UHGV virus genome: UHGV-0244087
Length of the DNA: 24,829 bases
Reading direction: 5' to 3' (one strand)
Source of the DNA: a virus
Within the stretch, counting starts at the first letter, position 1. Every line of letters begins with the position of its first letter. Below, piece after piece: positions 7,579 to 22,187 of the stretch. Position numbers and translations under genes: made by a program. A model generated the notes under the pieces. The model had not been told where the DNA came from. It made no database searches and worked only from the letters and a program-made list of their open reading frames with translations.

Positions 7579-7898
7579 TCGTCCTTCTCCTTCACCCTGC
7601 GATTAAAGGCCGCAATAACCTTGTCGCGTACTTTCTCTGCCCCCATAAAACCGATTGATGCGCCGATAAACGTTACGGCATCTTCAGGAAACCCGAAGAA
7701 GCGCAACGACCCGGCCACGGCCATGGCAAGAACGCCGCACGCCAGCGATCCCGTTACGGTCTGAACCAGTGTTCGTCCGTCATAAAGACTCATCAGCGCG
7801 GAAATGCTGACCGCCGCGCCTACTGCATAAACCGTTGGCAGGTGGTCAAAGAGCCACGCAATAACCTGCTCTGTGATCCCTGTTTGAATGGTGCTCAC
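7575..7898 (-). CDS. Holin (three predicted transmembrane segments)
   Basis: GTG start at 7896-7898 preceded by a GGGGGGAG ribosome-binding site, 2 nt after the X stop. Three hydrophobic segments and a charged C-terminus. The track ORF 7575..8117 is over-extended into X. Confidence 0.7.
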   Translation of the reverse strand: MSTIQTGITEQVIAWLFDHLPTVYAVGAAVSISALMSLYDGRTLVQTVTGSLACGVLAMAVAGSLRFFGFPEDAVTFIGASIGFMGAEKVRDKVIAAFNRRVKEKDE

Positions 7899-7900
7899 TG

Positions 7901-8101
7901 CTACTCCCCCCACAACTGAATCATTTCTCGTTTCTTCTTCTCCGGCTCCGGCATCTCCACTTCCTGCCCGGCGTCCAGAAATACCTGCTGACAGAGTCCG
8001 GGGTTGGCATCCAGCACCTTTTCGGTGACGCCCTGCGTCGTGCCGTAGTACCGGAAACAGAGCGAATCCACGGTGTCGTCTTCCAGTGCCTTCACTTTCA
8101 T
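7901..8101 (-). CDS. X: Tail protein X (P2 gpX-like)
   Basis: 66 aa starting MKVKALEDDTVDSLCFRYYG, close to the 67-aa size of P2 gpX. ATG overlaps the L stop by 1 nt. Confidence 0.85.
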   Translation of the reverse strand: MKVKALEDDTVDSLCFRYYGTTQGVTEKVLDANPGLCQQVFLDAGQEVEMPEPEKKKREMIQLWGE

Positions 8102-8595
8102 CAGCACAACTCCGCAAAGATTCGCGGGCGGCACAGAATGTCAGAGATGGCCCAGCTCACATCGCGCCACAAATCCGATGTCTGTATATCCAGTGCGTCC
8201 GCCCGGCGATCGCCCTTGTCCGTTGTGTCCGCATCGCGGTAACGCTCCAGAATCAGGGCACGTGTGGCGGTATAAACAGCATTGCGCCAGTGCCAGAGAT
8301 TGACGCTTTCTCCGTTAATTACGGGTGCCGGAACATCGGCCAGCGTCTGATGGCCAGCCGCCTGCTGTTCCTGCTGCCACGCTTCCAGTTCGCGGGTAAC
8401 GTGAGCCACGGCCCCAGTGGCGGTATGCAGCAGGCGGGAGGTGGTCACGCGGCCCGGCAGTCGTACCGCCAGACGCAGCTCGCGCAGCACAATATCCGGC
8501 CAGAATGCACCTGCTGAAATGCGAGTGTCGCCATCATCGGTATCGGTGATGTCGTCCTCTGCGGGTCCTGGTTCAGTTCTGGCAACCATACTCAT
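8101..8595 (-). CDS. L: Head completion/stabilisation protein L
   Basis: About 164 aa, between M and X. Start set at ATG 8593-8595, which has an AGGAG ribosome-binding site; the track start at 8604 is a GTG without one. Confidence 0.85.
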   Translation of the reverse strand: MSMVARTEPGPAEDDITDTDDGDTRISAGAFWPDIVLRELRLAVRLPGRVTTSRLLHTATGAVAHVTRELEAWQQEQQAAGHQTLADVPAPVINGESVNLWHWRNAVYTATRALILERYRDADTTDKGDRRADALDIQTSDLWRDVSWAISDILCRPRIFAELC

Positions 8596-11612: not shown

Positions 11613-13364
11613 ATGATTCAGGACGCTTTTGTGCGCCAGCGTGCGCGGCAACTTTACTGGCAGGGTTATCCGCCCGCAGAAATATCACGTCTGATGGGAA
11701 TAAACCCGAACACGATTTATGCGTGGAAAAAACGCGACCAGTGGGATGAAACGCCACCCGTGCAGCGTGTCACGCAGTCCATCGATGCGCGCCTCATCCA
11801 GCTTACTGAAAAACAGAATAAAACAGGCGGTGACTTTAAGGAAATAGACCTGCTGACCCGGCAGCTTAAAAAACTGCATGATGGCCAGCCGGATGCGACG
11901 GCCACAGGAAAGAAAGGCCGGGCGAAAAAACTCAAAAATCATTTCACGCCGGAACAGATTGCCGCACTGCGGGAAAAAATCATCAGCAGGCTGGAGTGGC
12001 ATCAGCGGGGCTGGTTTGACTCCCTGACCCTTTGCAGGGAAGCCGGGATACGTAACAGGATGATCCTGAAATCCCGACAGATTGGCGCGACCTGGTATTT
12101 TGCACAGGAAGCACTGCTGATGGCGCTGCGTGACGATGTGGCGCAACCTTACCAGCGTAACCAGATTTTTTTGTCTGCGTCGCGTCGTCAGGCGTTCCAG
12201 TTTAAAAGCATTATTCAGAAGGCCGCGGCTGAAGTTGATGTGGAGCTGAAAGGGGGCGATAAAATCATCCTCTCCAACGGCGCAGAGCTGCATTTTCTCG
12301 GCACTTCTGCTGCGTCGGCGCAGTCCTATACGGGCAATTTTTATTTTGATGAATTTTTCTGGGTCAGTCGCTTTGCTGAACTGCGCAAGGTGGCTGGCGC
12401 TATGGCAACCCTCAGCGGACTGCGGCGCACCTACTTCTCCACGCCATCCACCGAAACGCACGAGGCATACGCCTACTGGAACGGCGACCGCTGGAACGAG
12501 AAAAAGGCCACGCATAAACGCCAGCGTTTTTCTGTGGACTGGAAAACGCTGCATAACGGGCTTATCTGCCCTGACCGGACGTGGCGGCAAATTGTCACGC
12601 TGGAAGATGTGGTTAATCACGGCTGGAAACACACCGATATTGATGAAATTCGTGATGAAAACACCGAAGACGAGTTCCTCAATCTCTATATGTGTGAGTT
12701 TGTCCGCGAAGGGGAATCGGCATTTAACCTGAATATCCTGATTGGCTGTGGTGTTGACGGATACGACGACTGGAAAGACTGGAAACCTTTTGCTCCCCGC
12801 CCGATGGGGAATCGTCCGGTATGGATTGGGTATGACGCAAACGGCAGCAGTGGCAACGGCGACAGCGGCGCTGTGTCCGTGGTGGTTCCTCCGTCTGTTC
12901 CTGGTGGCCGTTTTCGAACGGTGGAGACGCGACGCGTTCAGGGGCTGGAGTTTGAAGAACAGGCCAGAGTCATTGAAGAGTTCACGTGTCGCTACAACGT
13001 GGAACACATCGGCATTGATGTGACGGGCGGGAACGGGGAGGCTGTTTATCAGATAGTGAAACGGTTTTTCCCTGCTGCTATTCCGTACACCTTCACGCTG
13101 TCATCAAAACGGTCGCTGGTACTGAAAATGCTGCAAATAATGCGTGCCGGGCGGTGGGAATACGATCGCGCCGAACGCGAGCTGGTCGCAGCCTTTAACG
13201 CCGTGCGTAAGGTGAAAACACCGGGCGGCTTTATCACTTACGAAACGGACCGCGCGAGGGGGATCAGCCACGGCGACCTTGCGTGGGCAACCATGCTTGC
13301 TGTCATTAACGAACCAATTGGCGGCGAAGGAGAAAACGAGCGTTTCACAGTTATGGAGTTCTGA
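11613..13364 (+). CDS. P: Terminase ATPase (large) subunit P
   Basis: 583 aa, close to the 590-aa size of P2 gpP; AGGGGGAG ribosome-binding site; followed by Q with a TGATG overlap. Confidence 0.9.
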   Translation: MIQDAFVRQRARQLYWQGYPPAEISRLMGINPNTIYAWKKRDQWDETPPVQRVTQSIDARLIQLTEKQNKTGGDFKEIDLLTRQLKKLHDGQPDATATGKKGRAKKLKNHFTPEQIAALREKIISRLEWHQRGWFDSLTLCREAGIRNRMILKSRQIGATWYFAQEALLMALRDDVAQPYQRNQIFLSASRRQAFQFKSIIQKAAAEVDVELKGGDKIILSNGAELHFLGTSAASAQSYTGNFYFDEFFWVSRFAELRKVAGAMATLSGLRRTYFSTPSTETHEAYAYWNGDRWNEKKATHKRQRFSVDWKTLHNGLICPDRTWRQIVTLEDVVNHGWKHTDIDEIRDENTEDEFLNLYMCEFVREGESAFNLNILIGCGVDGYDDWKDWKPFAPRPMGNRPVWIGYDANGSSGNGDSGAVSVVVPPSVPGGRFRTVETRRVQGLEFEEQARVIEEFTCRYNVEHIGIDVTGGNGEAVYQIVKRFFPAAIPYTFTLSSKRSLVLKMLQIMRAGRWEYDRAERELVAAFNAVRKVKTPGGFITYETDRARGISHGDLAWATMLAVINEPIGGEGENERFTVMEF

Positions 13365-14410
13365 TGAGCAGAAAAAATAAAAAAGTGCGCATGAGTTCAC
13401 GCATTGATCTCGCTGATGCGCTCAGGAAAGAATCATCGCTCAGTGCATTCACATTTGATGGTCCTTATCGCCTGACCGGGCATGACCTGCTGGACAATAT
13501 GTACTGTGCTGATAACGGGCGGTGGTATGAAACCCCGGTGGACTGGTACGGTCTGGCAAGAGCAGCCCGGCAAACGTCCTGGCATCAGTCTGCGCTTTAC
13601 TTTAAGCGCAATGTATTACTCGGTTGCTACATCCCGCACCCGCTGCTTTCCCGGCAGGATTTCTCGGCGCTGGCGCTGGACTGGTTTGTGTTCGGTAACG
13701 CATTCCTTGAGCTTCGAAGCAATATGCTCGGCGAACCGCTTAAATTACGGCACGCCCTGGCGAAATACATGCGACGCGGAAGCGATCTTGAATCATGGTG
13801 GTATGTGCAGGATGGCAAGGACGCGTTTCAGTTTCGTCCTGGCAAAGTGTGCCACCTGATGAATCCGGATATTAACCAGGAAATCTACGGCATGCCGGAA
13901 TATCTTGGCGCATTACTCTCGGCCAGCCTTTCTCATTCGGCGGACATGTTCAGAAAACTGTACTACGACAACGGATCCCACGCCGGGTGCATCATCTACA
14001 TCGGTGCAGCGCAGGTAAACCGCGAAAGCATGGACTCCCTGAAAGAAACGCTACAGGGGGCACGTGGTGGTGGTGCGTTTAAAAACGTGCTCATTCATGC
14101 GCCCAACGGGGGCAAAGAGGGGGTGCAAATTTTGCCGTTCCAGCAGATCACCGCAAAAGATGAATTCATGAATGTTAAGGCGGCATCCCGTGATGATGTG
14201 CTGGCTGCGCACCGCGTTCCGCCGCAACTGATGGGGGCGATGCCGGGCGAAAAAAGTGCGTTTGGCGATGTGGAGAAGGCAGCGCGGGTTTACGCAATTA
14301 ACGAGCTGATGCCCGTCATGGAGGCTATGAAGCACATCAATGACTGGCTTGGCGAAGAGGTGATCCGTTTTAACTCTTATGCTCTTCTTGATGAAAAAAC
14401 AGCCCCGTGA
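13364..14410 (+). CDS. Q: Portal protein Q
   Basis: 348 aa; FTFDGP..WYETPV..GLAR resembles recalled P2 gpQ; sits downstream of P. Confidence 0.9.
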   Translation: MSRKNKKVRMSSRIDLADALRKESSLSAFTFDGPYRLTGHDLLDNMYCADNGRWYETPVDWYGLARAARQTSWHQSALYFKRNVLLGCYIPHPLLSRQDFSALALDWFVFGNAFLELRSNMLGEPLKLRHALAKYMRRGSDLESWWYVQDGKDAFQFRPGKVCHLMNPDINQEIYGMPEYLGALLSASLSHSADMFRKLYYDNGSHAGCIIYIGAAQVNRESMDSLKETLQGARGGGAFKNVLIHAPNGGKEGVQILPFQQITAKDEFMNVKAASRDDVLAAHRVPPQLMGAMPGEKSAFGDVEKAARVYAINELMPVMEAMKHINDWLGEEVIRFNSYALLDEKTAP

Positions 14411-15048: not shown

Positions 15049-15077
15049 GCCGGGGCATAAAAAATTTATGCCCCGGC
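15049..15077. repeat. Perfect 29-bp palindrome in the non-coding stretch upstream of the 174-aa gene
   Basis: gccggggcat-aaaaaattt-atgccccggc, 10-bp arms extendable to 13 bp through the A/T loop. No U-tract follows on either strand. Confidence 0.7.
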
Positions 15078-15448
15078 TCTCCAGCTCCTGTATCAATCAG
15101 ATAATTTCACGACGCCTTCCAGTTTATCGCCACCATCGACGGTCAGACTCTTACGCAATTCCACCGCGTTGACTGTATGTTCTCGCTGCCTCAGTGCGAT
15201 TTTGACGGCCTTACCTTTCACCCCATCAAATCAAAAGCCCTCACGCCTTTTTCATGCTCAGCGTGAGAAATATGGCCATTCTGTTGTGTCTCTGCGACAT
15301 CGTTCAGGGAATGCTATTTACCCCCTGAAACGCGGGCTGTTCCCCCGTCACCTGCGCGCAGAAAAAGCGCGTTTTTTTGTGCACGCACGGATCCTTGACG
15401 GATCCAGCCGCCATGCGGGCCGGAAGGGTAAAAAGTCGTTCAAAAAAA

Positions 15449-15478
15449 TTGTGCAAATTTGTGCACTTTTGTGCAAAC
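15449..15478. repeat. Three tandem 10-bp iterons (TTGTGCA core)
   Basis: ttgtgcaaat, ttgtgcactt, ttgtgcaaac in direct succession; a fourth ttgtgca core lies at 15377-15383. Confidence 0.7.
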
Positions 15479-15480
15479 AA

Positions 15481-15505
15481 AAAGCGCCCCTGAGGCGCTT
15501 TAGTG
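15481..15505 (-). terminator. Intrinsic terminator ending the minus-strand cargo operon
   Basis: Hairpin agcgcc-cctga-ggcgct followed on the minus strand by a T-rich run (ttttgtttg); lies about 30 nt after the stop of the 87-aa gene. Confidence 0.65.
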
Positions 15506-15535
15506 TTTTATAGGTTGTGTATATTTGCTGGGTCC

Positions 15536-15799
15536 TTATCCTGCTGTGCTTTCAACTGATGAGGGGAACAAAATCTTTTCATCAAACCCTGCATTCATAT
15601 CATGGACAGCAACACACCAATCCATTGACGAACGATTATCAAGAGCCTCCATGATTTCATCCATGCGGCGCAGGTCATACAGGTAAATGCTTTTATCGCC
15701 AATGGTGTAAAAACCAATTTTTTTCGGTGATGGACAGCGATCAAGAACGTCCTGTAATTCGCTCAACCATGCTTGTTCTTTTTTTGTCAAAGTTGCCAT
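15536..15799 (-). CDS. Hypothetical 87-aa protein, fourth gene of the cargo operon
   Basis: ATG with an AAGGAGAG ribosome-binding site that is embedded in the last codons of the upstream gene. No family recognised. Confidence 0.6.
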   Translation of the reverse strand: MATLTKKEQAWLSELQDVLDRCPSPKKIGFYTIGDKSIYLYDLRRMDEIMEALDNRSSMDWCVAVHDMNAGFDEKILFPSSVESTAG

Positions 15800-15800
15800 A

Positions 15801-16292
15801 TCACTCTCCTTTGATGCGAATGCCAGTGGTACTCATTCTCCTGATTTCCCAGAGCACACGAGGAACACCACCGTTTCCGACCGGATCGCGTTTACTCCGC
15901 AGGGCGACGCTTGATTCCGCCCAGCTTTTTCTTGGAGGAAGCTCTTTCACACGAACAAAACCAGCTGCGCGGAGAGATGCTCCTGATTCATCTGCCTGGG
16001 TGTACGTAATACAACGTTGATAACCCATAGCCTTTGCTGCCCGCCAGACAGCACCATAAAGCGCGCTGTTAGCGTTGCGTTCTCCTGTGGTACATGTGCG
16101 ATTTACTTCAAGCGTTAATCCATCGTCCAAATGTCGTGCAACAGGTCTACCGGCTGTCGCCACACCTATCAATTCTCCGGCATCATTTCTCAGACCAATG
16201 CTGAATTTATGCCCCACCGGGGGTTTATTGTGTCGGTGATGTCTGGATATAAACGCCTTCGCAACACGAAGAGTAACCGGTGAAATTTGCAT
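15801..16292 (-). CDS. Hypothetical 163-aa protein, third gene of the cargo operon; possibly acyltransferase-like
   Basis: ATG at 16290-16292, 2 nt after the stop of the 104-aa gene, with the same embedded ribosome-binding site. A loose resemblance to GNAT-toxin N-terminal regions (FISRHHRHNKPP..IGVATAG) is not verified. Confidence 0.6.
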   Translation of the reverse strand: MQISPVTLRVAKAFISRHHRHNKPPVGHKFSIGLRNDAGELIGVATAGRPVARHLDDGLTLEVNRTCTTGERNANSALYGAVWRAAKAMGYQRCITYTQADESGASLRAAGFVRVKELPPRKSWAESSVALRSKRDPVGNGGVPRVLWEIRRMSTTGIRIKGE

Positions 16293-16294
16293 TC

Positions 16295-16609
16295 TCACTC
16301 TCCTTTGATGCCAATGTTTACAGACTGGCAAGCCTCTTTGAGCACCCAGTCAACAGCGTCTTTCCATGCTCCGGTTTCGACTGGCGGATTCTCACGCTTT
16401 ACCTGTTCATAGAAATGTACTGCTCTAACCAGTCCATCTGACGGTTTTGCCTGTAGTGCAGCCTGAGCTATGCGGTATGCCTGGAGCATACGGGCGTCGT
16501 TGATATCCATTCCGAACGGAATTTCTGATGATTGTGACTCTGCATCTTCAAGCCTGGCAATTTCTTTACGTAAGAAGTATTTCAACTCTTGTTTCTGTTT
16601 TCTGTTCAT
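16295..16609 (-). CDS. Hypothetical 104-aa helical protein, second gene of the cargo operon
   Basis: ATG overlaps the stop of the upstream gene (ATGA). C-terminus ...NIGIKGE parallels the ...GIRIKGE end of the next protein. Confidence 0.6.
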
Positions 16610-16938
16610 GCGTTTTTTTCCTTTTTGTCTGTCACTTCTTTCCTGATAATTTCATTGCACAAATCCACGCACTCATTGCAGATGTAAACAGACGGTCCGG
16701 CAATCACCTTTGTGACTTCGTACTGGGATTTATTGCAGAAGCTGCAATAAACCGTCTTCTCGCCTGAAGTCCATGTTTTGCTGGTTTCGCCAGACATCAG
16801 TTGTTTGAGGTCTTTTTCACGACGAAGAACTATCTGGCCACATTCAGCTATTTTTTGGATGTTGACATTTTCTTCTTTCGCCAGCGCTTCCATCCGCTCA
16901 ATCAGTCGCTGCGCTTTTTCTCTGTCAATGTGTTGCAT
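16606..16938 (-). CDS. 110-aa protein with a C-terminal ClpX-type C4 zinc-binding domain and an N-terminal helical region
   Basis: [41 protein letters not shown] is near-identical in pattern to the recalled E. coli ClpX N-terminal domain ([40 protein letters not shown]), with the same C-x2-C-x18-C-x2-C spacing. ATG with an AGGGGGA ribosome-binding site. Confidence 0.75.
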
Positions 16939-16972
16939 TGTGTCCCCCTTGTTTATGCTCCCGGGTTAAAGT

Positions 16973-16996
16973 CATCAGGGCGGATGCGCCCTGATG
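16973..16996. other. Perfect 10-bp-stem hairpin between parR and the zinc-binding-domain gene
   Basis: catcagggcg-gatg-cgccctgatg. No U-tract follows on the minus strand, so it is unlikely to be a simple terminator. Confidence 0.6.
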
Positions 16997-17001
16997 TTGT
17001 G

Positions 17002-17313
17002 TTATTCGGGAAATAACGCCCGGATATTTCCGGCCATCTGACTGGTTATCTGTGCGGCTGATACTGGCTGTGACGCGGGGCGTTCTGTCCTGGTTTGTGT
17101 CATTGATAACGCCTCATCATCAGCCCATGCAGCCAGTCGGTAAGCCTCTGCCGGATTCATTTTCAGTAGTGCCAGCCCGGCCAGAAAAGCCACGCGTTGA
17201 CCACTTTTGCGGGCTTCTGGTGTAAGGCTGTCCAGCCAGGCGCATGCTTCGCCTTCGTTCTTGACGGCGGCGGGCTTCAGATAGAAACTTATCCGTCTGG
17301 TTGGTGTCGTCAT
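17002..17313 (-). CDS. parR: ParR (StbB)-like centromere-binding protein
   Basis: 103 aa; RRISFYLKP..LDSLTPEARKS..AFLAGLALL..NIRALFPE parallels recalled R1 ParR (RRTIAFKLNP..LDSIPQGERSR..LTAGLALY..LRSLFPKE). AAGGAG ribosome-binding site; start 5 nt after the parM stop. Confidence 0.75.
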   Translation of the reverse strand: MTTPTRRISFYLKPAAVKNEGEACAWLDSLTPEARKSGQRVAFLAGLALLKMNPAEAYRLAAWADDEALSMTQTRTERPASQPVSAAQITSQMAGNIRALFPE

Positions 17314-17317
17314 TGGT

Positions 17318-18277
17318 TTACTCCTTGCCCATTGCGTACAGCCCATTAACCAGAGCAAACTGTGGCACCCCGTCCGCGATGAAAGTCGCATTAACTCCGC
17401 AGGCTTCGCGGATAGCGGGTGCCACAATCTCTGCCCCGCCACCGACAACCATCACCCGCCCGTAACCCGAAAAACCCGCCAGCGCGCGGATCACGCGTTG
17501 TTTCAGTGTTTCTTCCTTTTCACGAATAACCGCCATCAGGCTGGCGTAATGCGCGTCATTGTGGATGTGCTGGCGCAGCCAGGCTTCATCATGGCGATGT
17601 TCGATAATGGTATTGGCGATGTGGTGACTGGTACGCATACCGTTAGTGGCCATCACCGACAGTACGGCATCGGCCATCAGGGAAACGCCTACGTGTGGAT
17701 CGCAAAACACCTGGCTGATACCTGCCAGTTGTCCCTGAACCTTTGCCACATCCAGCGTGGTTCCGCCTAAATCCACAATCAGCAGGGATTCAAACGGACT
17801 CATGTCAGCCAGTGCCTTAAAGCCAGCCGGAATGGATTCAGGCATAACCCGTACGTTACGGATAGTGAATGCTTCGCCGTTCTGGTACTCCACCGGGCGC
17901 ATAACGTTCGCTTTTTTGCGGTTGATGTTGGCTATGTCCGGCTGTGCGTTTGTGTCGAAATACTCGCTCAGTGGCAGGGTGACAACCACATCCACCTCCT
18001 GTGGCGTGATGCCTGATTTGACCAGCGCGTGATGAATGGCAATGACATTCACATCGCTGTACTGGTATTGCGTGTCAGTCGTCTGGACAAAGCGATCGCT
18101 GACCGGATCAAAACCATAGCGCACGCCATCAAGCATGTAGTTCGCGGGCTGCGTGCCACCGAACGGCGCAGACCATTCCGACTTGAAGCTGTTCGGGCTG
18201 ATGGCGTTGCGGCGTTCGCCGTTCTCAGTCCATGCCAGCTTGATGTTGGTGGAGCCGTCATCGATACAAATTTTCAT
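17318..18277 (-). CDS. parM: ParM (StbA)-like actin-family ATPase
   Basis: 319 aa; MKICIDDGSTNIKL..ISPNSFK..YSDVNVIAIHHAL..VMPESIPAG..LIVDLGGTTLD..VGGGAE tracks recalled R1 ParM along its length. Confidence 0.85.
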   Translation of the reverse strand: MKICIDDGSTNIKLAWTENGERRNAISPNSFKSEWSAPFGGTQPANYMLDGVRYGFDPVSDRFVQTTDTQYQYSDVNVIAIHHALVKSGITPQEVDVVVTLPLSEYFDTNAQPDIANINRKKANVMRPVEYQNGEAFTIRNVRVMPESIPAGFKALADMSPFESLLIVDLGGTTLDVAKVQGQLAGISQVFCDPHVGVSLMADAVLSVMATNGMRTSHHIANTIIEHRHDEAWLRQHIHNDAHYASLMAVIREKEETLKQRVIRALAGFSGYGRVMVVGGGAEIVAPAIREACGVNATFIADGVPQFALVNGLYAMGKE

Positions 18278-18307
18278 GTCGCTTTTCCTTATGTTGATTA
18301 ATTAATC

Positions 18308-18418
18308 GTTTACGGGATTCTGAAATCCCGTTTTTGCCTGTTTTATGCGCGCTTCATATATCGCGGCGCGTTTTTTGCTCATTTACGGGATTTGTGAATC
18401 CCGTTTCTGTCTGTTTTT
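18308..18418. repeat. Two direct copies of a ~37-bp element, each with an 8-bp inverted repeat (acgggatt..aatcccgt) followed by a T-rich tail
   Basis: Copy 1 at 18308-18344 (gtttacgggattctgaaatcccgtttttgcctgtttt) and copy 2 at 18382-18418, 74 bp apart. They lie just upstream of parM, and copy 2 overlaps the last codons of A. Confidence 0.75.
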
Positions 18419-21176
18419 TGTTTCCACTGGTCAGGCCACCCCGCAGCAGGTCTGCTTTGCGGCGGGCGCGTTCAGTGGTTTCACTGATTCTCTGTGCGTG
18501 CTCTGCGTCGCGGATGGCGCGCAGCATGTCAGAAAGCACGGTAACGGGTGTTTTCATGGTGTTCTGGTCTTGCTGAAGTGTGGATGCCAGGCGTGCGGCG
18601 GCTTCGGGGTCTGATGCCCTCAGCTGTTCCAGATAGCTGGCGACCGGGTTATGGCGGATCTCCGTACTGCTTACGCCGTGGTTACGGCTCAGGCGCTGCC
18701 AGAGCTGCGTGATCCGGCTGTCCGGTCGGGTATCCGGTTTGCGTACAATTTCAAATCCCTGCGGTGCAATGATGCTGCCGTCAACGTACAGACTGCCGCC
18801 CCGTAACAGGTGCTGCATCTGCTGTTCACCGATATGCAGGCCGAGAGATTCGGCAGATTCCCGCCATTCTTTAGCGAGTAATTCGTGGTTATCAGGCAAA
18901 GGCCGCTGCTGTTTGCGGCTCTGTGTCCAGCTCTGCATTTCATCACTGCTGTTTTTTGCCTGTTTGTCACGAAGCGAACGCATCAGCGCCCGGCGTTCGT
19001 GCCGTTTCAGTGAGCGCATCCATTCGTTCACGTCAACGCCGTCAGGAAGCTGCGGCCACGGTGCTGGCCGTTCTTCCGGCTGTTCTGTCCCGTTGTTGTC
19101 CGTTTCCTGTACACGGGGACAGTTATTGCCACGAGTCCAAGGGGCGGCATGGCCGCCCTGAAGGTCAAAACCATTTTCGCGGGCGTTGTCTTCTGGTTCT
19201 GGTTTACGTCTTACCAACTTCCAGTTATCCGGATGCGTGCACACACGGGAGGATTCCCCGATGAGTGGTGACCAGATCCCGTAAATCTGTACGCTCTGTT
19301 CGCCGTAATCGTTCAGCTCATCTGCGAGGTCGTAGGCGGTGCGAATCAGGTAGTCCTTGCGTGGAACAAGCACGCCACCCTGTTTTTCAATGTAGGAGGC
19401 AAAACACCCGGCATCAGCGGCAGCGAGTACCGCATCCATTGCATCATCCTTCAGCCGTTGCGGGCCTTCCGGGTTGCGTGCCATCTGGCTGGCAAGGCGG
19501 CGGAGTTCACGCCATACCTGACGGGAGGGGATGCCAAAGAACTGGAACTGGCGGACCCGATGAAGACGCGCCCAGCCAATGGCGCGCTCCACGCTCTCGG
19601 CCATTGATTTTCCGGTTTCGTGGTCAACGCGTGGCTTGCCCGTTTTCGGGTCGATGCCATCTACGGCGCGGCTGTCCAGGTTTTTTCCGATGTAGGTCGC
19701 GATATAGCTGGTTGGTGTGCCTTTTGAGCCGTCGACATACTCCGCCTTAAAGCGCGGAGTAATATCATCGCCCAGTTCGTGACGATCTTCCTGAATGGCA
19801 ATATCGCGGGTGATGGCCACGATGCTGTCGATTTCTTCCGGATGAGCAAAGACCATCATATGCCAGTGCACGGTGCCGTCATGGTGAGGCTCCACCGTGC
19901 GGATGCCATACCAGCGCAGGCCGTCGCGGTTCAGTTTTTTGCGGACTGCCGCAAAAAACGTGTTAACCAGGTAATCGCTGGAGTCGCGCATGGTGGCCCC
20001 GTTCCATTTGGGGTTCGGATGACCGTTCTCCGTTGTTGCGTGGTATTTTGACGGGCAGGTGACGGTCAGAAACACCGCTCTGTCGCTACGGGCTTCGGCC
20101 AGAAGTTCCAGTCCCTTCATGGTGGCCATCATTTCTGCCTTACGGTGAACCGGGTTACTTACTCCCGCGTAATACACCGTCTCGAGATCAATCGTGAACC
20201 CGTCTTCATTTTCCAGCATGAAACTTTTCAGGAAATCGCGTGTTTTCTCGCGCTGTGCGCGAAACTCGCTTAACGCGTCCTGGCTCAGATAGGGCGATGT
20301 TTTTCTGGAAACCAGACAGGCGGCGCGGAGTTGTTCTTCTCTCCACTCGCAACGTAACAGCCACAGTTTGCGTTTCCACCATTCCGCACAGGTCAGGCGG
20401 AGGATTGCGCCCGGCAGCAGCTCCGTGTCCGGTTCGTTCCTCCGGTCTTTGTCTGTTGTCAGTGCGTCATAATGTGGAGGCATGGCGTGCAGGTGTAACG
20501 CCATGCGGGCCAGCATCTGATACGCCTTCAGCGTTACATCCATGGTCAGTTCGCCATCAGTCGCGCCAAAGCCATCGCAGAGTTTTTCGAAGGTGCTGCT
20601 GAACATCGCCGCCGTCATGGTGGCCAGCGTCTGTATCTGGTGTTTGTTGAGCTGCGGCAGGTAAAGCAAATCGTCCAGGCGTTCGCGTCCGGCAAGGGAG
20701 CGATAACCCGGTGTCAGCCAGCGTCTGTCAGTGCGATCCAGACGTTCGAATATTTTGCGCAGGGTTCCGCGTGCATAGCGTTCCGCCTGCCAGCTCTTTT
20801 TGCCTTTCCGGCGATCGGCTTCCTGTTTTTTGCGCAGGAAGGAGAGGTGGCGAATAAGCGGATCGCGCAGATAGGACGGCAGCAGGCGCAGCGAGGCCAT
20901 GGCTTCATCCACCGCGCCGCGTGCCCGTTTTCTGGCGTCTCCTGCCAGTGTGATGGTTTTGTCCTGTTTTTCCTGTGCGTCCAGGCTTTTATTAATCAGG
21001 TTGCCCAGCGGTGTGGCGGAGAACGCCGCATCAGCCATTTCCTGGCGGCGTTCGTTCTCTGCCCGGTAGGCATCCAGCCAGGAGGAAAGTGCGGATTCAG
21101 GTGCGGGGATCTCCGTTCCTTCACGTCCTACTGCGTGGCGCGGTTGTTGCCAGTCCCTGATGTACTCTGCCGTCAT
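18354..21176 (-). CDS. A: Replication initiation endonuclease A (rolling-circle), with a long C-terminal extension
   Basis: 940 aa, recognised as P2 gpA-like from overall sequence and position downstream of the early-region ORFs; ATG start. Recalled P2 gpA is 761 aa. Confidence 0.85.
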   Translation of the reverse strand: MTAEYIRDWQQPRHAVGREGTEIPAPESALSSWLDAYRAENERRQEMADAAFSATPLGNLINKSLDAQEKQDKTITLAGDARKRARGAVDEAMASLRLLPSYLRDPLIRHLSFLRKKQEADRRKGKKSWQAERYARGTLRKIFERLDRTDRRWLTPGYRSLAGRERLDDLLYLPQLNKHQIQTLATMTAAMFSSTFEKLCDGFGATDGELTMDVTLKAYQMLARMALHLHAMPPHYDALTTDKDRRNEPDTELLPGAILRLTCAEWWKRKLWLLRCEWREEQLRAACLVSRKTSPYLSQDALSEFRAQREKTRDFLKSFMLENEDGFTIDLETVYYAGVSNPVHRKAEMMATMKGLELLAEARSDRAVFLTVTCPSKYHATTENGHPNPKWNGATMRDSSDYLVNTFFAAVRKKLNRDGLRWYGIRTVEPHHDGTVHWHMMVFAHPEEIDSIVAITRDIAIQEDRHELGDDITPRFKAEYVDGSKGTPTSYIATYIGKNLDSRAVDGIDPKTGKPRVDHETGKSMAESVERAIGWARLHRVRQFQFFGIPSRQVWRELRRLASQMARNPEGPQRLKDDAMDAVLAAADAGCFASYIEKQGGVLVPRKDYLIRTAYDLADELNDYGEQSVQIYGIWSPLIGESSRVCTHPDNWKLVRRKPEPEDNARENGFDLQGGHAAPWTRGNNCPRVQETDNNGTEQPEERPAPWPQLPDGVDVNEWMRSLKRHERRALMRSLRDKQAKNSSDEMQSWTQSRKQQRPLPDNHELLAKEWRESAESLGLHIGEQQMQHLLRGGSLYVDGSIIAPQGFEIVRKPDTRPDSRITQLWQRLSRNHGVSSTEIRHNPVASYLEQLRASDPEAAARLASTLQQDQNTMKTPVTVLSDMLRAIRDAEHAQRISETTERARRKADLLRGGLTSGNKKQTETGFTNPVNEQKTRRDI

Positions 21177-21182
21177 AGTGAT

Positions 21183-21548
21183 TTACTTCGTCATGCCATT
21201 CAGGGTGTCGCGGCAGACTGTAGCCAGCCGCTGAATTTCCAGCACGGTGTCTTCTGTGTCGGCATGGCGATGTGTGATGCGGATGCTGTCGGCAATCACA
21301 TCGACGATTGCAGAGGATGGGCGCTGGTAAATGCCAATAACGGACGGGGTGCCACCTTCAATGCGGTAAAGCCTGTAATTTCCCTCGTGGCTGTCAATCA
21401 TGTAGCGACCATCAATAACAATCTTTCCGTCAGCGAGCTGCGGTACAGGCAGGGATTTCAGGTACATGTCATAACGATCACGCACGCGAGCGGCAAGATC
21501 ACGTTCTGTGTTGAGCAGGTATTCAAGAAAGTCGTTGGCGAGAATCAT
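21183..21548 (-). CDS. Hypothetical 121-aa early-region protein immediately upstream of A
   Basis: ORF ending 7 nt before the A start; no family recognised. Confidence 0.55.
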   Translation of the reverse strand: MILANDFLEYLLNTERDLAARVRDRYDMYLKSLPVPQLADGKIVIDGRYMIDSHEGNYRLYRIEGGTPSVIGIYQRPSSAIVDVIADSIRITHRHADTEDTVLEIQRLATVCRDTLNGMTK

Positions 21549-21851: not shown

Positions 21852-22030
21852 GGGGTGGCCTCGTACGTAGTAAGTTTTAAAAACTCACCATCCAGAGGTT
21901 CCAAGCTCGGGGTGGTGAGACGTACAGGGTTGGAACTACCGGCTACGCACGAATCCGGCCCGACCGAAGTCGGCCCCATACGCCCCACCATAATTCTGAC
22001 GCGAAAAAGACGTGGCGATACGGTACGCAC

Positions 22031-22051
22031 AAAAAAACCGCTGGCGCGGTT
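22031..22051 (-). terminator. Intrinsic terminator (minus strand) inside the non-coding island
   Basis: Hairpin aaccgc-gcca-gcggtt followed on the minus strand by a run of seven T. Confidence 0.6.
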
Positions 22052-22187
22052 GTGCGCGTGCATAGTCAGCGGGGTTCCAATCCCGGCACCCGTTTTATGA
22101 GGTGCAGCGGAAATGTAACCTGACTGATTGCGGCATGGCAAGCGGTTTTTTTGTGAGAACGGCATACTAAAAAATCCTGATACTGCT

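What the first reader, a model, noticed from the sequence alone, without database searches (positions are those of the whole stretch)
16606..16938. Phage-encoded stand-alone copy of the ClpX N-terminal zinc-binding domain
Residues about 64-104 (nt 16627-16749) reproduce the ClpX zinc-binding domain almost residue for residue, including the four Cys ligands with identical spacing (CSFC, 18 residues, CNEC), but the AAA+ motor is absent. Fused instead is a 60-residue helical N-terminal region. In ClpX this domain dimerises and docks adaptors and substrates such as SspB, lambda O and MuA. A free copy could poison ClpX or divert its adaptors, for example to protect phage proteins from ClpXP or to act as a sensor in a defence module.
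Basis: partly seen in the sequence, partly recalled or inferred. Interest (0 to 1): 0.8.

Follow-up and report, generated by a model that had tools for sequence, protein, structure and literature searches.

The report
Phage-encoded free ClpX zinc-binding domain
A P2-like E. coli phage carries a small, conserved gene whose product is a copy of the adaptor-docking zinc domain of the host ClpX unfoldase without the motor; it most likely acts as a decoy that shields selected proteins from ClpXP degradation, but no one has tested this.

Summary
ORF 16606-16938 (- strand, 110 aa) has a C-terminal ClpX zinc-binding domain (ZBD): Pfam PF06689 E=7e-18, 78% identical to E. coli ClpX residues 10-50, same CxxC-18-CxxC spacing. 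The predicted model fits PDB 2DS5/2DS6/2DS8 at 0.7 A. There is no AAA+ module. The N-terminus is a helical hairpin with no relatives outside this family, joined by a disordered linker.

The window is a P88-like (Peduoviridae) phage. The gene lies in the gpA-gpQ variable hotspot, after parM/parR. Homologues (29-95% identity) occupy the same slot in diverged P2-like prophages and also occur in P1-like and SSU5-like phage-plasmids. Neighbouring genes vary, so the protein probably acts alone.

Synonymous sites against host clpX are saturated, yet the protein sequence and the adaptor-contact residues (F16, A29, Y34, I46) are kept. dN/dS is 0.2-0.45.

Best reading, inferred and not shown: a decoy or anti-adaptor that titrates ZBD-docking adaptors and substrates. 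Recombinant free ZBD does this in vitro. A defence-sensor role is not supported.

The family is catalogued (PHROG 6797; RefSeq "ClpX C4-type zinc finger protein") but I found no paper that characterises it. It is an interesting, testable new variant of phage interference with host proteases.

The parts
16606..16938 (-). Complete gene for the 110-aa stand-alone ClpX-ZBD protein (PHROG 6797; RefSeq name 'ClpX C4-type zinc finger protein').
   Evidence: ORF list and sequence; annotated CDS XSB42704.1 in PhiR44_2 and gp19 in P88; PHROG 6797 full-length match, E=2e-58; dN/dS 0.2-0.45 between diverged homologues.
16633..16755 (-). ClpX-type zinc-binding domain, residues 62-102. Zn ligands are C65, C68, C87 and C90. 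Equivalents of the ClpX adaptor-contact residues are F67 (F16), A80 (A29), Y85 (Y34) and I97 (I46).
   Evidence: Pfam PF06689 E=6.8e-18; PDB sequence hits 1OVX and 2DS5; AF2 model superposes on 2DS5/2DS6/2DS8 at rmsd 0.7 A over 40 residues; residue conservation table.
16756..16794 (-). Flexible linker, residues 49-61. It varies in length and sequence among homologues.
   Evidence: pLDDT below 50 for residues 53-59; an insertion of 11 residues here in the Salmonella homologue.
16795..16923 (-). N-terminal amphipathic helical hairpin, residues 6-48. This orphan domain is found only fused to the ZBD. E23 and C33 are nearly invariant.
   Evidence: AF2 helices 6-22 and 27-48, pLDDT 81-91; a search of 1.84 billion representatives found it only in this family; no PDB match by profile or fold; alignment A4.
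16943..16950 (-). Ribosome-binding site AAGGGGGA, 4 nt upstream of the ATG.
   Evidence: Read directly from the sequence.
16973..16996 (.). A 10-bp GC-rich hairpin between the parR stop and the ZBD gene. It marks the boundary between the conserved P88-type backbone and the variable cargo. It has a T-rich tail only on the + strand, which is antisense to the genes.
   Evidence: Terminator scan; homology with P88-like phages that lack the ZBD gene ends at about window 16977-17003.
16606..16609 (-). ATGA overlap: the stop codon of the ZBD gene overlaps the start of the downstream 104-aa ORF (16295-16609). This suggests translational coupling in this phage only.
   Evidence: Sequence; the downstream gene differs in other phages.

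Best explanation
The gene encodes a motor-less mimic of the ClpX N-terminal domain that works as a decoy, or anti-adaptor. The proposed steps are as follows. The C-terminal ZBD folds and dimerises like the host domain. It presents the same hydrophobic docking patch (F16/A29/Y34/I46 equivalents). It thereby competes with ClpX for proteins that must dock on the ZBD: adaptors such as SspB and RssB, and substrates of the lambda-O, MuA or UmuD type. The result would be selective shielding of N-domain-dependent clients from ClpXP, while pore-recognised substrates (ssrA-type tags) are still degraded. The N-terminal helical hairpin probably adds oligomerisation or avidity, or a second still unknown contact. 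The gene sits in early, replication-proximal operons of temperate phages. The most likely beneficiary is therefore the phage itself during lytic development, for example through stabilisation of a replication or regulatory protein. Shown here: domain identity, fold, conservation, selection, genomic slot and independence from neighbouring genes. Inferred: zinc binding, dimerisation, the binding partners, the effect on ClpXP and the beneficiary.
For: 1. The domain is a bona fide ClpX ZBD, with identical Cys spacing.
2. The residues reported as important are conserved. These are F16, A29 and Y34 for SspB binding (PMC3064785) and the F16/I46 patch for lambda-O, trigger factor, SspB and RssB (PMC7804408). 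Across 33 distinct phage short-ZBD sequences the counts are F16 33/33, A29 31/33, I46 I/V 30/33 and Y34 aromatic 28/33.
3. Of the 32 codons that encode the same amino acid in the phage gene and in clpX, only 12 are the same codon, and nucleotide identity is 66%. blastn of the phage gene did not hit clpX in any of the 5,426 E. coli genomes. The protein similarity is therefore kept by selection, not by recent capture.
4. Purifying selection acts on both domains (omega 0.1-0.5).
5. There is biochemical precedent. Free recombinant ZBD at 5-20 uM inhibits RssB-mediated sigma-S degradation by 0.6 uM ClpXP, and deleting the ZBD abolishes sigma-S and lambda-O degradation but not ssrA degradation (PMC7226468; PMC7804408).
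6. No partner gene is conserved. Downstream genes differ among P2-like, P1-like and SSU5-like carriers, and the same allele has different neighbours in UTI89 and in strain 06-00048. This points to a host target.
7. The gene keeps the same slot after gpA in P2-like contigs that are only 29-46% identical. A 65-aa ZBD sits just after the replication genes of Pseudomonas phage PP9W2.
Against: There is no experimental datum for this protein or any homologue (literature searches). In vitro, free ZBD is needed in roughly 10- to 30-fold molar excess, so efficacy in the cell would depend on high expression or on avidity from the N-terminal domain, and both are unknown. Y34, a reported SspB contact, is Cys in four natural variants, so SspB may not be the relevant ligand. 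The conserved orphan N-terminal domain is not explained by a pure decoy model. The ZBD is conserved in ClpX generally, so part of the similarity reflects fold constraints. Expression timing is not established: no promoter-like site lies directly upstream.
Confidence: 0.5

Rival explanations
1. Subunit poisoning or re-targeting. The phage ZBD forms a heterodimer with the N-domain of host ClpX protomers instead of a homodimer. This would either disable the natural trimer-of-dimers docking platform or graft the phage helical hairpin onto ClpX as a new docking site that directs ClpXP to phage-chosen targets.
For: Sequence identity to the host domain is very high (76-88% among family members), which would allow mixed dimers. 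The conserved, family-specific N-terminal hairpin on a flexible linker looks like a second functional module, as expected of an adaptor-like bridge. The ZBD is known to dimerise (PMC7226468).
Against: ClpX N-domains are tethered at high local concentration in the hexamer and form stable dimers, so exchange with a free domain may be unfavourable (general knowledge, not tested here). No target for the hairpin is known and it matches nothing. Other phages encode bare 65-86-aa ZBDs without this hairpin, which fits a decoy better.
Confidence: 0.17
2. Prophage-encoded exclusion factor. The biochemistry is the same (titration of ZBD ligands), but the gene is expressed in the lysogen for the host's benefit. 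It would block competing phages that need the ClpX N-domain, such as Mu-type transposable phages whose transpososome must be remodelled by ClpX.
For: The gene lies in the gpA-gpQ region that Rousset et al. 2022 define as a hotspot for anti-phage systems in P2-like phages (PMC9122126), and loci with zf-C4_ClpX are listed in their supplementary table. The gene has low GC (0.44 against about 0.55 in the backbone), typical of cargo. parMR immediately upstream has its own palindromic sites, which might allow expression in lysogens.
Against: No PADLOC model matches. The same paper notes that the hotspot also holds non-defence genes. Homologues in P1-like, SSU5-like and Pseudomonas phages sit in early lytic accessory or replication regions, not in defence islands. 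The slot is conserved across diverged P2-like phages, which is unlike the rapid turnover expected of defence cargo.
Confidence: 0.15
3. A role unrelated to ClpX. The zinc ribbon is reused as a generic protein- or nucleic-acid-binding module, for example as a small regulator of phage replication or late transcription, and the likeness to ClpX only reflects common ancestry and fold constraints.
For: PF06689 fingers occur in other architectures: a ParB-like fusion in L071 and several other short proteins, and sigma-factor fusions mentioned in PMC11119718. P2-like phages use small zinc-finger regulators such as Ogr/Delta, one of which is adjacent in L004. The N-terminal domain is unexplained.
Against: Surface residues that contact adaptors, and not only the Zn ligands and core, are retained despite saturated synonymous divergence. 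The phage short ZBDs are closer to E. coli ClpX (26-36 of 41 residues) than the full-length phage-encoded ClpX proteins of other hosts are (23-27 of 41). No DNA-binding motif or Pfam hit was found.
Confidence: 0.13

Closest known systems
N-terminal zinc-binding domain of E. coli ClpX (PDB 1OVX, 2DS5-2DS8; Pfam PF06689)
   Same: Same fold (rmsd 0.7 A to the model), same C4 ligand spacing, 76-78% identical, and the adaptor-contact residues F16/A29/Y34/I46 are retained.
   Different: It is not attached to an AAA+ motor. It lies at the C-terminus of the protein rather than the N-terminus, preceded by an orphan helical hairpin. It is encoded by phages, and its synonymous sites are saturated relative to host clpX.
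Recombinant isolated ZBD used as a competitor in ClpXP assays (Micevski et al. 2020, PMC7226468)
   Same: A free ZBD without the motor. It dimerises, cross-links to RssB and inhibits RssB-dependent sigma-S degradation. This is the activity proposed for the phage protein.
   Different: It is a laboratory construct with the host sequence, it lacks the N-terminal hairpin, and it needs a 10- to 30-fold excess in vitro.
Anti-adaptors IraD, IraM and IraP of E. coli
   Same: Small proteins that stabilise a ClpXP substrate by intercepting the adaptor step. IraD and the ZBD are proposed to share a docking site on RssB (PMC7226468).
   Different: There is no sequence or fold relationship. The Ira proteins bind RssB through their own folds, whereas this protein would do so by copying the protease's own docking domain.
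Phage modulators of host AAA+ proteases: lambda RexB, T4 PinA, T7 Gp4.5, SPO1 Gp53 (from my own knowledge, not checked here)
   Same: Phage-encoded small proteins that alter host ATP-dependent proteolysis to protect phage or antitoxin proteins.
   Different: They have unrelated sequences and mechanisms. None is a copy of a domain of the protease it targets.
Other phage stand-alone ZBD proteins (PHROG 12435, e.g. the 65-aa 'Clp protease' of Pseudomonas phage PP9W2; PHROG 5259)
   Same: Motor-less ClpX-type zinc fingers in early operons of temperate phages.
   Different: They lack the N-terminal hairpin, are only about 45-50% identical in the ZBD, infect different hosts and are equally uncharacterised.

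Membership tests
ClpX C4-type zinc finger domain (Pfam PF06689) | Profile score above the curated gathering threshold | tested here: met
   64.7 bits against a cut-off of 27, E=6.8e-18, residues 64-99.
ClpX C4-type zinc finger domain (Pfam PF06689) | Four Cys ligands arranged as CxxC-18-CxxC | tested here: met
   C65/C68/C87/C90 with the same spacing as ClpX C14/C17/C36/C39; invariant in all 33 distinct family sequences.
ClpX C4-type zinc finger domain (Pfam PF06689) | Beta-hairpin plus C-terminal helix fold of the ZBD | tested here: met
   The AF2 model (pLDDT 82-91 in this part) superposes on 2DS5/2DS6/2DS8 at 0.7 A over 40 residues. This rests on a predicted structure, not a solved one.
ClpX C4-type zinc finger domain (Pfam PF06689) | Zinc binding and constitutive dimerisation | not testable with these tools
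   This needs metal analysis and SEC-MALS or cross-linking.
ClpX C4-type zinc finger domain (Pfam PF06689) | Hydrophobic adaptor/substrate docking patch (F16, A29, Y34, I46) | tested here: met
   F67, A80, Y85 and I97 are present in this protein. Across the family: F 33/33, A 31/33, aromatic 28/33, I/V 30/33. The residue roles come from PMC3064785 and PMC7804408.
ClpX AAA+ unfoldase (TIGR00382 / PRK05342) | AAA+ module (Walker A/B, pore loops, ClpP-binding IGF loop), about 420 aa | tested here: not met
   The protein has 110 aa. The NCBIfam clpX models score 51 and 49.5 bits against cut-offs of 371 and 359, and match only model positions 3-54.
Anti-phage defence system of the P2 gpA-gpQ hotspot | Location between gpA and gpQ of a P2-like phage | tested here: met
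   The order gpA 18354-21194, parM, parR, ZBD gene..., portal 13364-14410 fits the hotspot definition in PMC9122126.
Anti-phage defence system of the P2 gpA-gpQ hotspot | Match to a known or candidate defence protein model | tested here: not met
   No PADLOC hit for this protein or seven neighbours at E<=0.01.
Anti-phage defence system of the P2 gpA-gpQ hotspot | Conserved sensor-effector gene cassette | tested here: not met
   Downstream and upstream genes differ among carriers, and no neighbour is shared.
Anti-phage defence system of the P2 gpA-gpQ hotspot | Protection against phage infection when expressed | not testable with these tools
   Requires plaque assays. The Rousset 2022 supplement lists such loci, but the paper does not report testing them.
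Protease anti-adaptors / phage protease inhibitors (IraD/M/P, PinA, RexB) | Sequence homology to a characterised member | tested here: not met
   The only Pfam hit above threshold is PF06689. The N-terminal domain has no relatives outside the family.
Protease anti-adaptors / phage protease inhibitors (IraD/M/P, PinA, RexB) | Stabilises a protease substrate by blocking delivery | not testable with these tools
   Inferred from the in-vitro behaviour of free ZBD (PMC7226468). It needs degradation assays with this protein.

The most novel reading that the evidence does not exclude
The protein does not merely titrate adaptors. Its ZBD pairs with the N-domain of host ClpX, and the orphan helical hairpin becomes a virus-supplied docking site. 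The phage would then reprogramme the substrate choice of the host ClpXP machine by domain mimicry, destroying a host or rival-phage factor or remodelling the gpA-DNA replication complex. This would be a viral adaptor built from a copy of the protease's own adaptor-docking domain, and the many other short phage ZBD proteins would point to a widespread strategy.
Probability: 0.12. Interest if true: 0.85.

Novelty: new variant of a known kind. Interest (0 to 1): 0.62.

Why it matters
ClpXP controls sigma-S, SOS mutagenesis proteins, antitoxins, and phage replication and transposition proteins. How specificity is set at the ClpX N-domain is a long-studied question. A natural, virus-encoded free copy of that domain would be the first known case of a phage interfering with an AAA+ protease by copying its adaptor-docking module. 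It would also provide a selective in-vivo tool for switching off only the N-domain-dependent branch of ClpXP.

The family is not rare. Full-length copies are in 112 of 5,426 complete E. coli genomes, including UTI89. Related copies are found in about 110 more genomes, mostly on plasmids of the P1-like and SSU5-like kinds. Relatives are encoded on 303 IMG/VR contigs. Effects on stress resistance, mutagenesis, toxin-antitoxin stability or phage competition could therefore be common in clinical Enterobacteriaceae.

The hypothesis is directly testable with existing ClpXP assays.

Tried and rejected
1. Defence-system membership. PADLOC gave no hits for this gene or its neighbours, and no conserved neighbour was found. 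Rejected as the primary reading.

2. A fixed two-gene module with the overlapping 104-aa ORF. Rejected, because that ORF is absent from most carriers.

3. A functional link to parMR. Rejected as necessary, because the Salmonella carriers and L006 lack parMR.

4. Recent capture from host clpX. Rejected. blastn of the phage gene did not hit clpX in any genome, although clpX is present in 5,425 of 5,426. Nucleotide identity is 66% with saturated synonymous sites.

5. Search for the N-terminal domain elsewhere. A phmmer search of 1.84 billion representatives found only this family plus one spurious eukaryotic repeat protein. A profile search against PDB found nothing below E=0.1. Foldseek against PDB and BFVD matched only the ZBD part.

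6. Homodimer prediction with a linker-fused sequence.

7. GTDB genome scan with the family alignment. It was swamped by genuine clpX genes and returned no full-length family member, so it gave no information on host range.

8. P2 cos sequence search. No match.

9. Promoter scan. No sigma-70-like site lies directly upstream of the gene, so expression timing is unresolved.

10. Ten literature searches found no characterisation of a phage stand-alone ZBD.

Full report
**What is there**

The window is a P2-like temperate phage. Nucleotides 15500-18300 are 100% identical to Escherichia phage PhiR44_2 (PV340564) and 98% identical over 71% of that length to phage P88 (Peduoviridae, Xuanwuvirus).

ORF 16606-16938 on the - strand is real. 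It has an ATG preceded by AAGGGGGA, encodes 110 aa, and is annotated as a CDS in both phage records.

Its C-terminal part is a ClpX zinc-binding domain (ZBD):
- Pfam PF06689 scores 64.7 bits against a cut-off of 27, E=6.8e-18, over residues 64-99.
- phmmer against the solved ClpX ZBD structures 1OVX and 2DS5 gives E=7e-20 and 2.5e-19.
- The Cys pattern C65-xx-C68-(18)-C87-xx-C90 matches ClpX C14/C17/C36/C39 exactly.
- 32 of 42 aligned residues are identical to E. coli ClpX.

There is no AAA+ module. The NCBIfam clpX models score about 50 bits against cut-offs of about 360-370 and cover only model positions 3-54.

**Architecture**

An AlphaFold2 model built on an 11-sequence family alignment has mean pLDDT 79. 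It shows three parts:
- helices at residues 6-22 and 27-48;
- a disordered linker, with pLDDT below 50 at residues 53-59;
- a beta-hairpin plus long helix at residues 63-109.

Foldseek places the C-terminal part on 2DS5, 2DS6 and 2DS8 (the ZBD and the ZBD-SspB-tail complex) at rmsd 0.7 A over 40 residues. Nothing matches the N-terminal hairpin.

The hairpin is an orphan domain:
- phmmer with residues 1-60 against 1.84 billion cluster representatives found 12 proteins. All belong to this family except one spurious eukaryotic repeat protein.
- A profile of 11 diverse N-termini found nothing in PDB sequences below E=0.1.

Both helices show heptad-like hydrophobic stripes two residues wide (read from the sequence). 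E23 and C33 are nearly invariant in the hairpin.

**Genomic setting**

On the - strand the gene order is as follows:

| Coordinates | Feature |
|---|---|
| 18354-21194 | gpA replication endonuclease |
| 17318-18277 | parM |
| 17002-17313 | parR-like (Plasmid_stab_B) |
| 16973-16996 | 10-bp hairpin |
| 16606-16938 | ZBD gene |
| 16295-16609 | 104-aa ORF, overlapping the ZBD gene by ATGA |
| 15801-16292 | XF1762-family, Mom-like protein |
| 15536-15799 | 87-aa ORF |
| 13364-14410 (+ strand) | portal gene gpQ, opposite orientation |

This is the gpA-gpQ region that Rousset et al. 2022 describe as a diversity and defence hotspot of P2-like phages. They also note that about a quarter of P2-like phages carry a partition system there (PMC9122126). 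Their supplementary table lists loci such as 'StbA + Plasmid_stab_B + zf-C4_ClpX + hypothetical'. The gene was therefore catalogued, but the paper does not report testing it.

GC drops to 0.44-0.45 over the gene, against 0.53-0.59 in the backbone. No PADLOC model matches this protein or seven neighbours.

**Distribution and independence from neighbours**

- The full-length family (hairpin plus ZBD) has close members only in E. coli, E. albertii and Salmonella.
- It is present in 112 of 5,426 complete E. coli genomes, including UTI89.
- A further 110 or so genomes carry related genes with 74-78% nucleotide identity in the ZBD part, most of them on plasmids. Of the three I examined, one lay on an SSU5-like phage-plasmid, one on a P1-like phage-plasmid and one in a chromosomal P2-like prophage (L010). 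Phage records D6, CMS-2020a and PhiR41_1 also carry such genes. Their proteins align over the whole length, hairpin included.
- IMG/VR holds 303 contigs that encode relatives.
- In diverged P2-like contigs (29-46% identity: L054, L069, L070, L072, L083) the gene keeps the same slot between gpA and portal/terminase. The same is true in Salmonella prophages and in L006.

The adjacent genes are not conserved. An all-against-all BLAST of neighbours found no shared partner. The same ZBD allele is followed by the 104-aa/XF1762 set in UTI89 but by a 174-aa/Ead-Ea22 set in strain 06-00048. In the Salmonella prophages L004 and L005 it is the last gene before the oppositely oriented ogr-like gene and portal gene. 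The protein therefore most likely acts on its own, on a host target.

**Selection**

- Between diverged homologues, dN/dS is 0.2-0.45 for the whole gene, 0.13-0.30 for the hairpin where it can be measured, and 0.11-0.49 for the ZBD.
- Against authentic E. coli clpX, nucleotide identity over the 126-nt ZBD segment is 66%. I verified the clpX sequence at 100% identity to RefSeq chromosomes.
- Only 12 of the 32 codons that encode the same amino acid are the same codon, and two of the differences are switches between serine codon families.
- blastn of the phage gene hit clpX in none of the 5,426 genomes.

The high protein similarity is therefore maintained by selection and is not a recent capture. 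The phage short ZBDs are also closer to E. coli ClpX (26-36 of 41 residues; 36 of 41 in the Salmonella prophage version) than the full-length phage-encoded ClpX proteins from other hosts are (23-27 of 41).

**Functional surface**

The literature names F16, A29 and Y34 of ClpX as important for binding SspB (PMC3064785). It names the hydrophobic pocket around F16 and I46 as the site used by lambda-O, trigger factor, SspB and RssB (PMC7804408). The equivalents in this protein are F67, A80, Y85 and I97.

Conservation across 33 distinct phage short-ZBD sequences:

| ClpX residue | Conservation |
|---|---|
| F16 | invariant (33/33) |
| A29 | 31/33 |
| I46 | I or V in 30/33 |
| Y34 | aromatic in 28/33, Cys in four variants |

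**Mechanism (inference)**

The ZBD is required for ClpXP degradation of lambda-O and of RssB-delivered sigma-S, but not for degradation of ssrA-tagged proteins. Adding free ZBD at 5-20 uM inhibits sigma-S degradation by 0.6 uM ClpXP, and the free domain dimerises and cross-links to RssB (PMC7226468; PMC7804408).

A phage-made free ZBD is thus expected to act as a decoy for ZBD-docking adaptors and substrates. It would selectively protect N-domain-dependent clients. The hairpin may raise avidity by oligomerisation or contribute a second contact.

The position of the gene argues for a lytic-phase role that benefits the phage, possibly stabilising a replication or regulatory protein. The gene sits:
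- directly after the replication genes in P2-like phages;
- after the O/P-like replication genes in Pseudomonas phage PP9W2;
- in early accessory operons of P1-like, SSU5-like and Alize-type phages.

That last step is the weakest. No promoter-like site lies just upstream. The hairpin before the gene lacks a U-tract on the coding strand. Expression in lysogens from the parMR region cannot be excluded.

**Rivals**

1. Heterodimerisation with ClpX N-domains, either poisoning the docking platform or grafting the hairpin onto ClpX as a new docking site. This would explain the conserved hairpin, but nothing tested here supports it.
2. The same biochemistry used as a prophage exclusion function, for example against ClpX-dependent transposable phages. 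The hotspot location favours this. The lack of defence-model hits, the conserved slot and the contexts in other phage types argue against it.
3. A ClpX-unrelated zinc-ribbon regulator. The retention of adaptor-contact surface residues disfavours this.

ClpXP-dependent defence systems do exist in the same P2 hotspot. CmdTAC is one example, with its antitoxin degraded by ClpXP (bioRxiv 10.1101/2024.02.24.581848). Their degron is a C-terminal Ala-Ala, which is recognised by the pore, so a ZBD decoy would not obviously counter them.

**Novelty and verdict**

The domain and the gene family are already in databases: PHROG 6797 'unknown function', RefSeq 'ClpX C4-type zinc finger protein', and some mislabelled 'carboxylate--amine ligase'. 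Ten full-text searches found no functional study of a phage stand-alone ZBD.

Phage modulators of host AAA+ proteases and cellular anti-adaptors are known kinds. A modulator that is a copy of the protease's own docking domain would be a new variant. The defence-sensor idea is not supported.

Noticed in passing
window 21908-21995 (-) and 22031-22105 (-): Rfam finds a C4 antisense RNA (79.8 bits, gathering score 45) and an isrK Hfq-binding sRNA (67.4 bits, gathering score 50) next to each other in the early region of this P2-like phage. This is a P1/P7-type immunity RNA module in a Peduoviridae genome.
   Followed up: no
window 18306-18347 and 18379-18420: Two copies, 73 nt apart, of a 42-nt element containing the palindrome ACGGGATT-N4-AATCCCGT. 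One lies in the gpA-parM intergenic region and one inside the 3' end of gpA. They are candidates for a parC-like centromere or ParR operator of the phage parMR system.
   Followed up: partly
window 15786-15822 and 16280-16316: A 37-nt direct repeat (84% identity) sits at two consecutive gene junctions. Both the 104-aa ORF and the XF1762 gene end in '...IKGE*', and the same sequence provides the ribosome-binding site of the next gene. It looks like a linker sequence that lets cargo cassettes be swapped by recombination.
   Followed up: partly
window 15801-16292 (-): An XF1762-family protein (NCBIfam E=5e-61) with a weak, sub-threshold match to the Mom DNA-modification family (Pfam PF25680, 22.4 bits against 27.1). 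The same cassette, with the 87-aa ORF, is shared with lambdoid phages and many plasmids next to Ead/Ea22 genes.
   Followed up: no
L003 and L004, about 7850-7920 and 8390-8460: In Salmonella P2-like prophages the ZBD gene is flanked on both sides by a direct repeat of about 70 nt (CCGCTCGCCGCAAGCCCTGATTA..GAGCCGCACGGCGGCGAG...GAAGCGGAATTACT). This suggests a cassette bounded by repeats.
   Followed up: no
L006 compared with the window gene (16606-16938): The gene itself is mosaic. The L006 hairpin is of the L010/plasmid type (synonymous sites saturated against the window), but its ZBD segment is close to the window allele (dS 0.30). This indicates recombination between subfamilies at the linker.
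   Followed up: partly
L028, L029, L033, L034, L035, L036, L039 and L083: Natural variants carry Cys instead of the Tyr equivalent to ClpX Y34 (PSVCIC). Y34 is reported as an SspB contact. This could mean altered ligand specificity or a fifth Cys near the zinc site.
   Followed up: no
L071 2400-3311; L074-L077, L080, L084: Other phage architectures carry the same finger. These include a 303-aa protein with what reads like a ParB-like N-terminus (not checked against a profile) and a C-terminal ZBD, and several 79-155-aa proteins with different short extensions. Full-length phage-encoded ClpX proteins also occur (L078, L079, L085-L088, L090-L092).
   Followed up: no
L070 4825-5630 (-): Upstream of the ZBD gene, separated only by a 66-aa ORF, and on the opposite strand of this diverged P2-like contig, lies a gene pair that reads like Phd/YefM antitoxin plus Doc/Fic toxin. 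I judged this from the sequence only and did not check it against profiles. Phd is known as a ClpXP substrate (my own knowledge), so the proximity may or may not be meaningful.
   Followed up: no
window 15049-15077 and 15447-15480: A perfect 13-bp palindrome (GCCGGGGCATAAA/TTTATGCCCCGGC) and three tandem TTGTGCA(A/C) motifs lie in the non-coding stretch between the cargo genes and the 174-aa ORF. The P2 cos sequence is not present in the window.
   Followed up: no
P88 gp19 (L002 6308-6640) and clusters P0001, P0003, P0004, P0016: Many database records name this protein 'carboxylate--amine ligase'. No evidence here supports that name, and it appears to be a propagated mis-annotation.
   Followed up: yes
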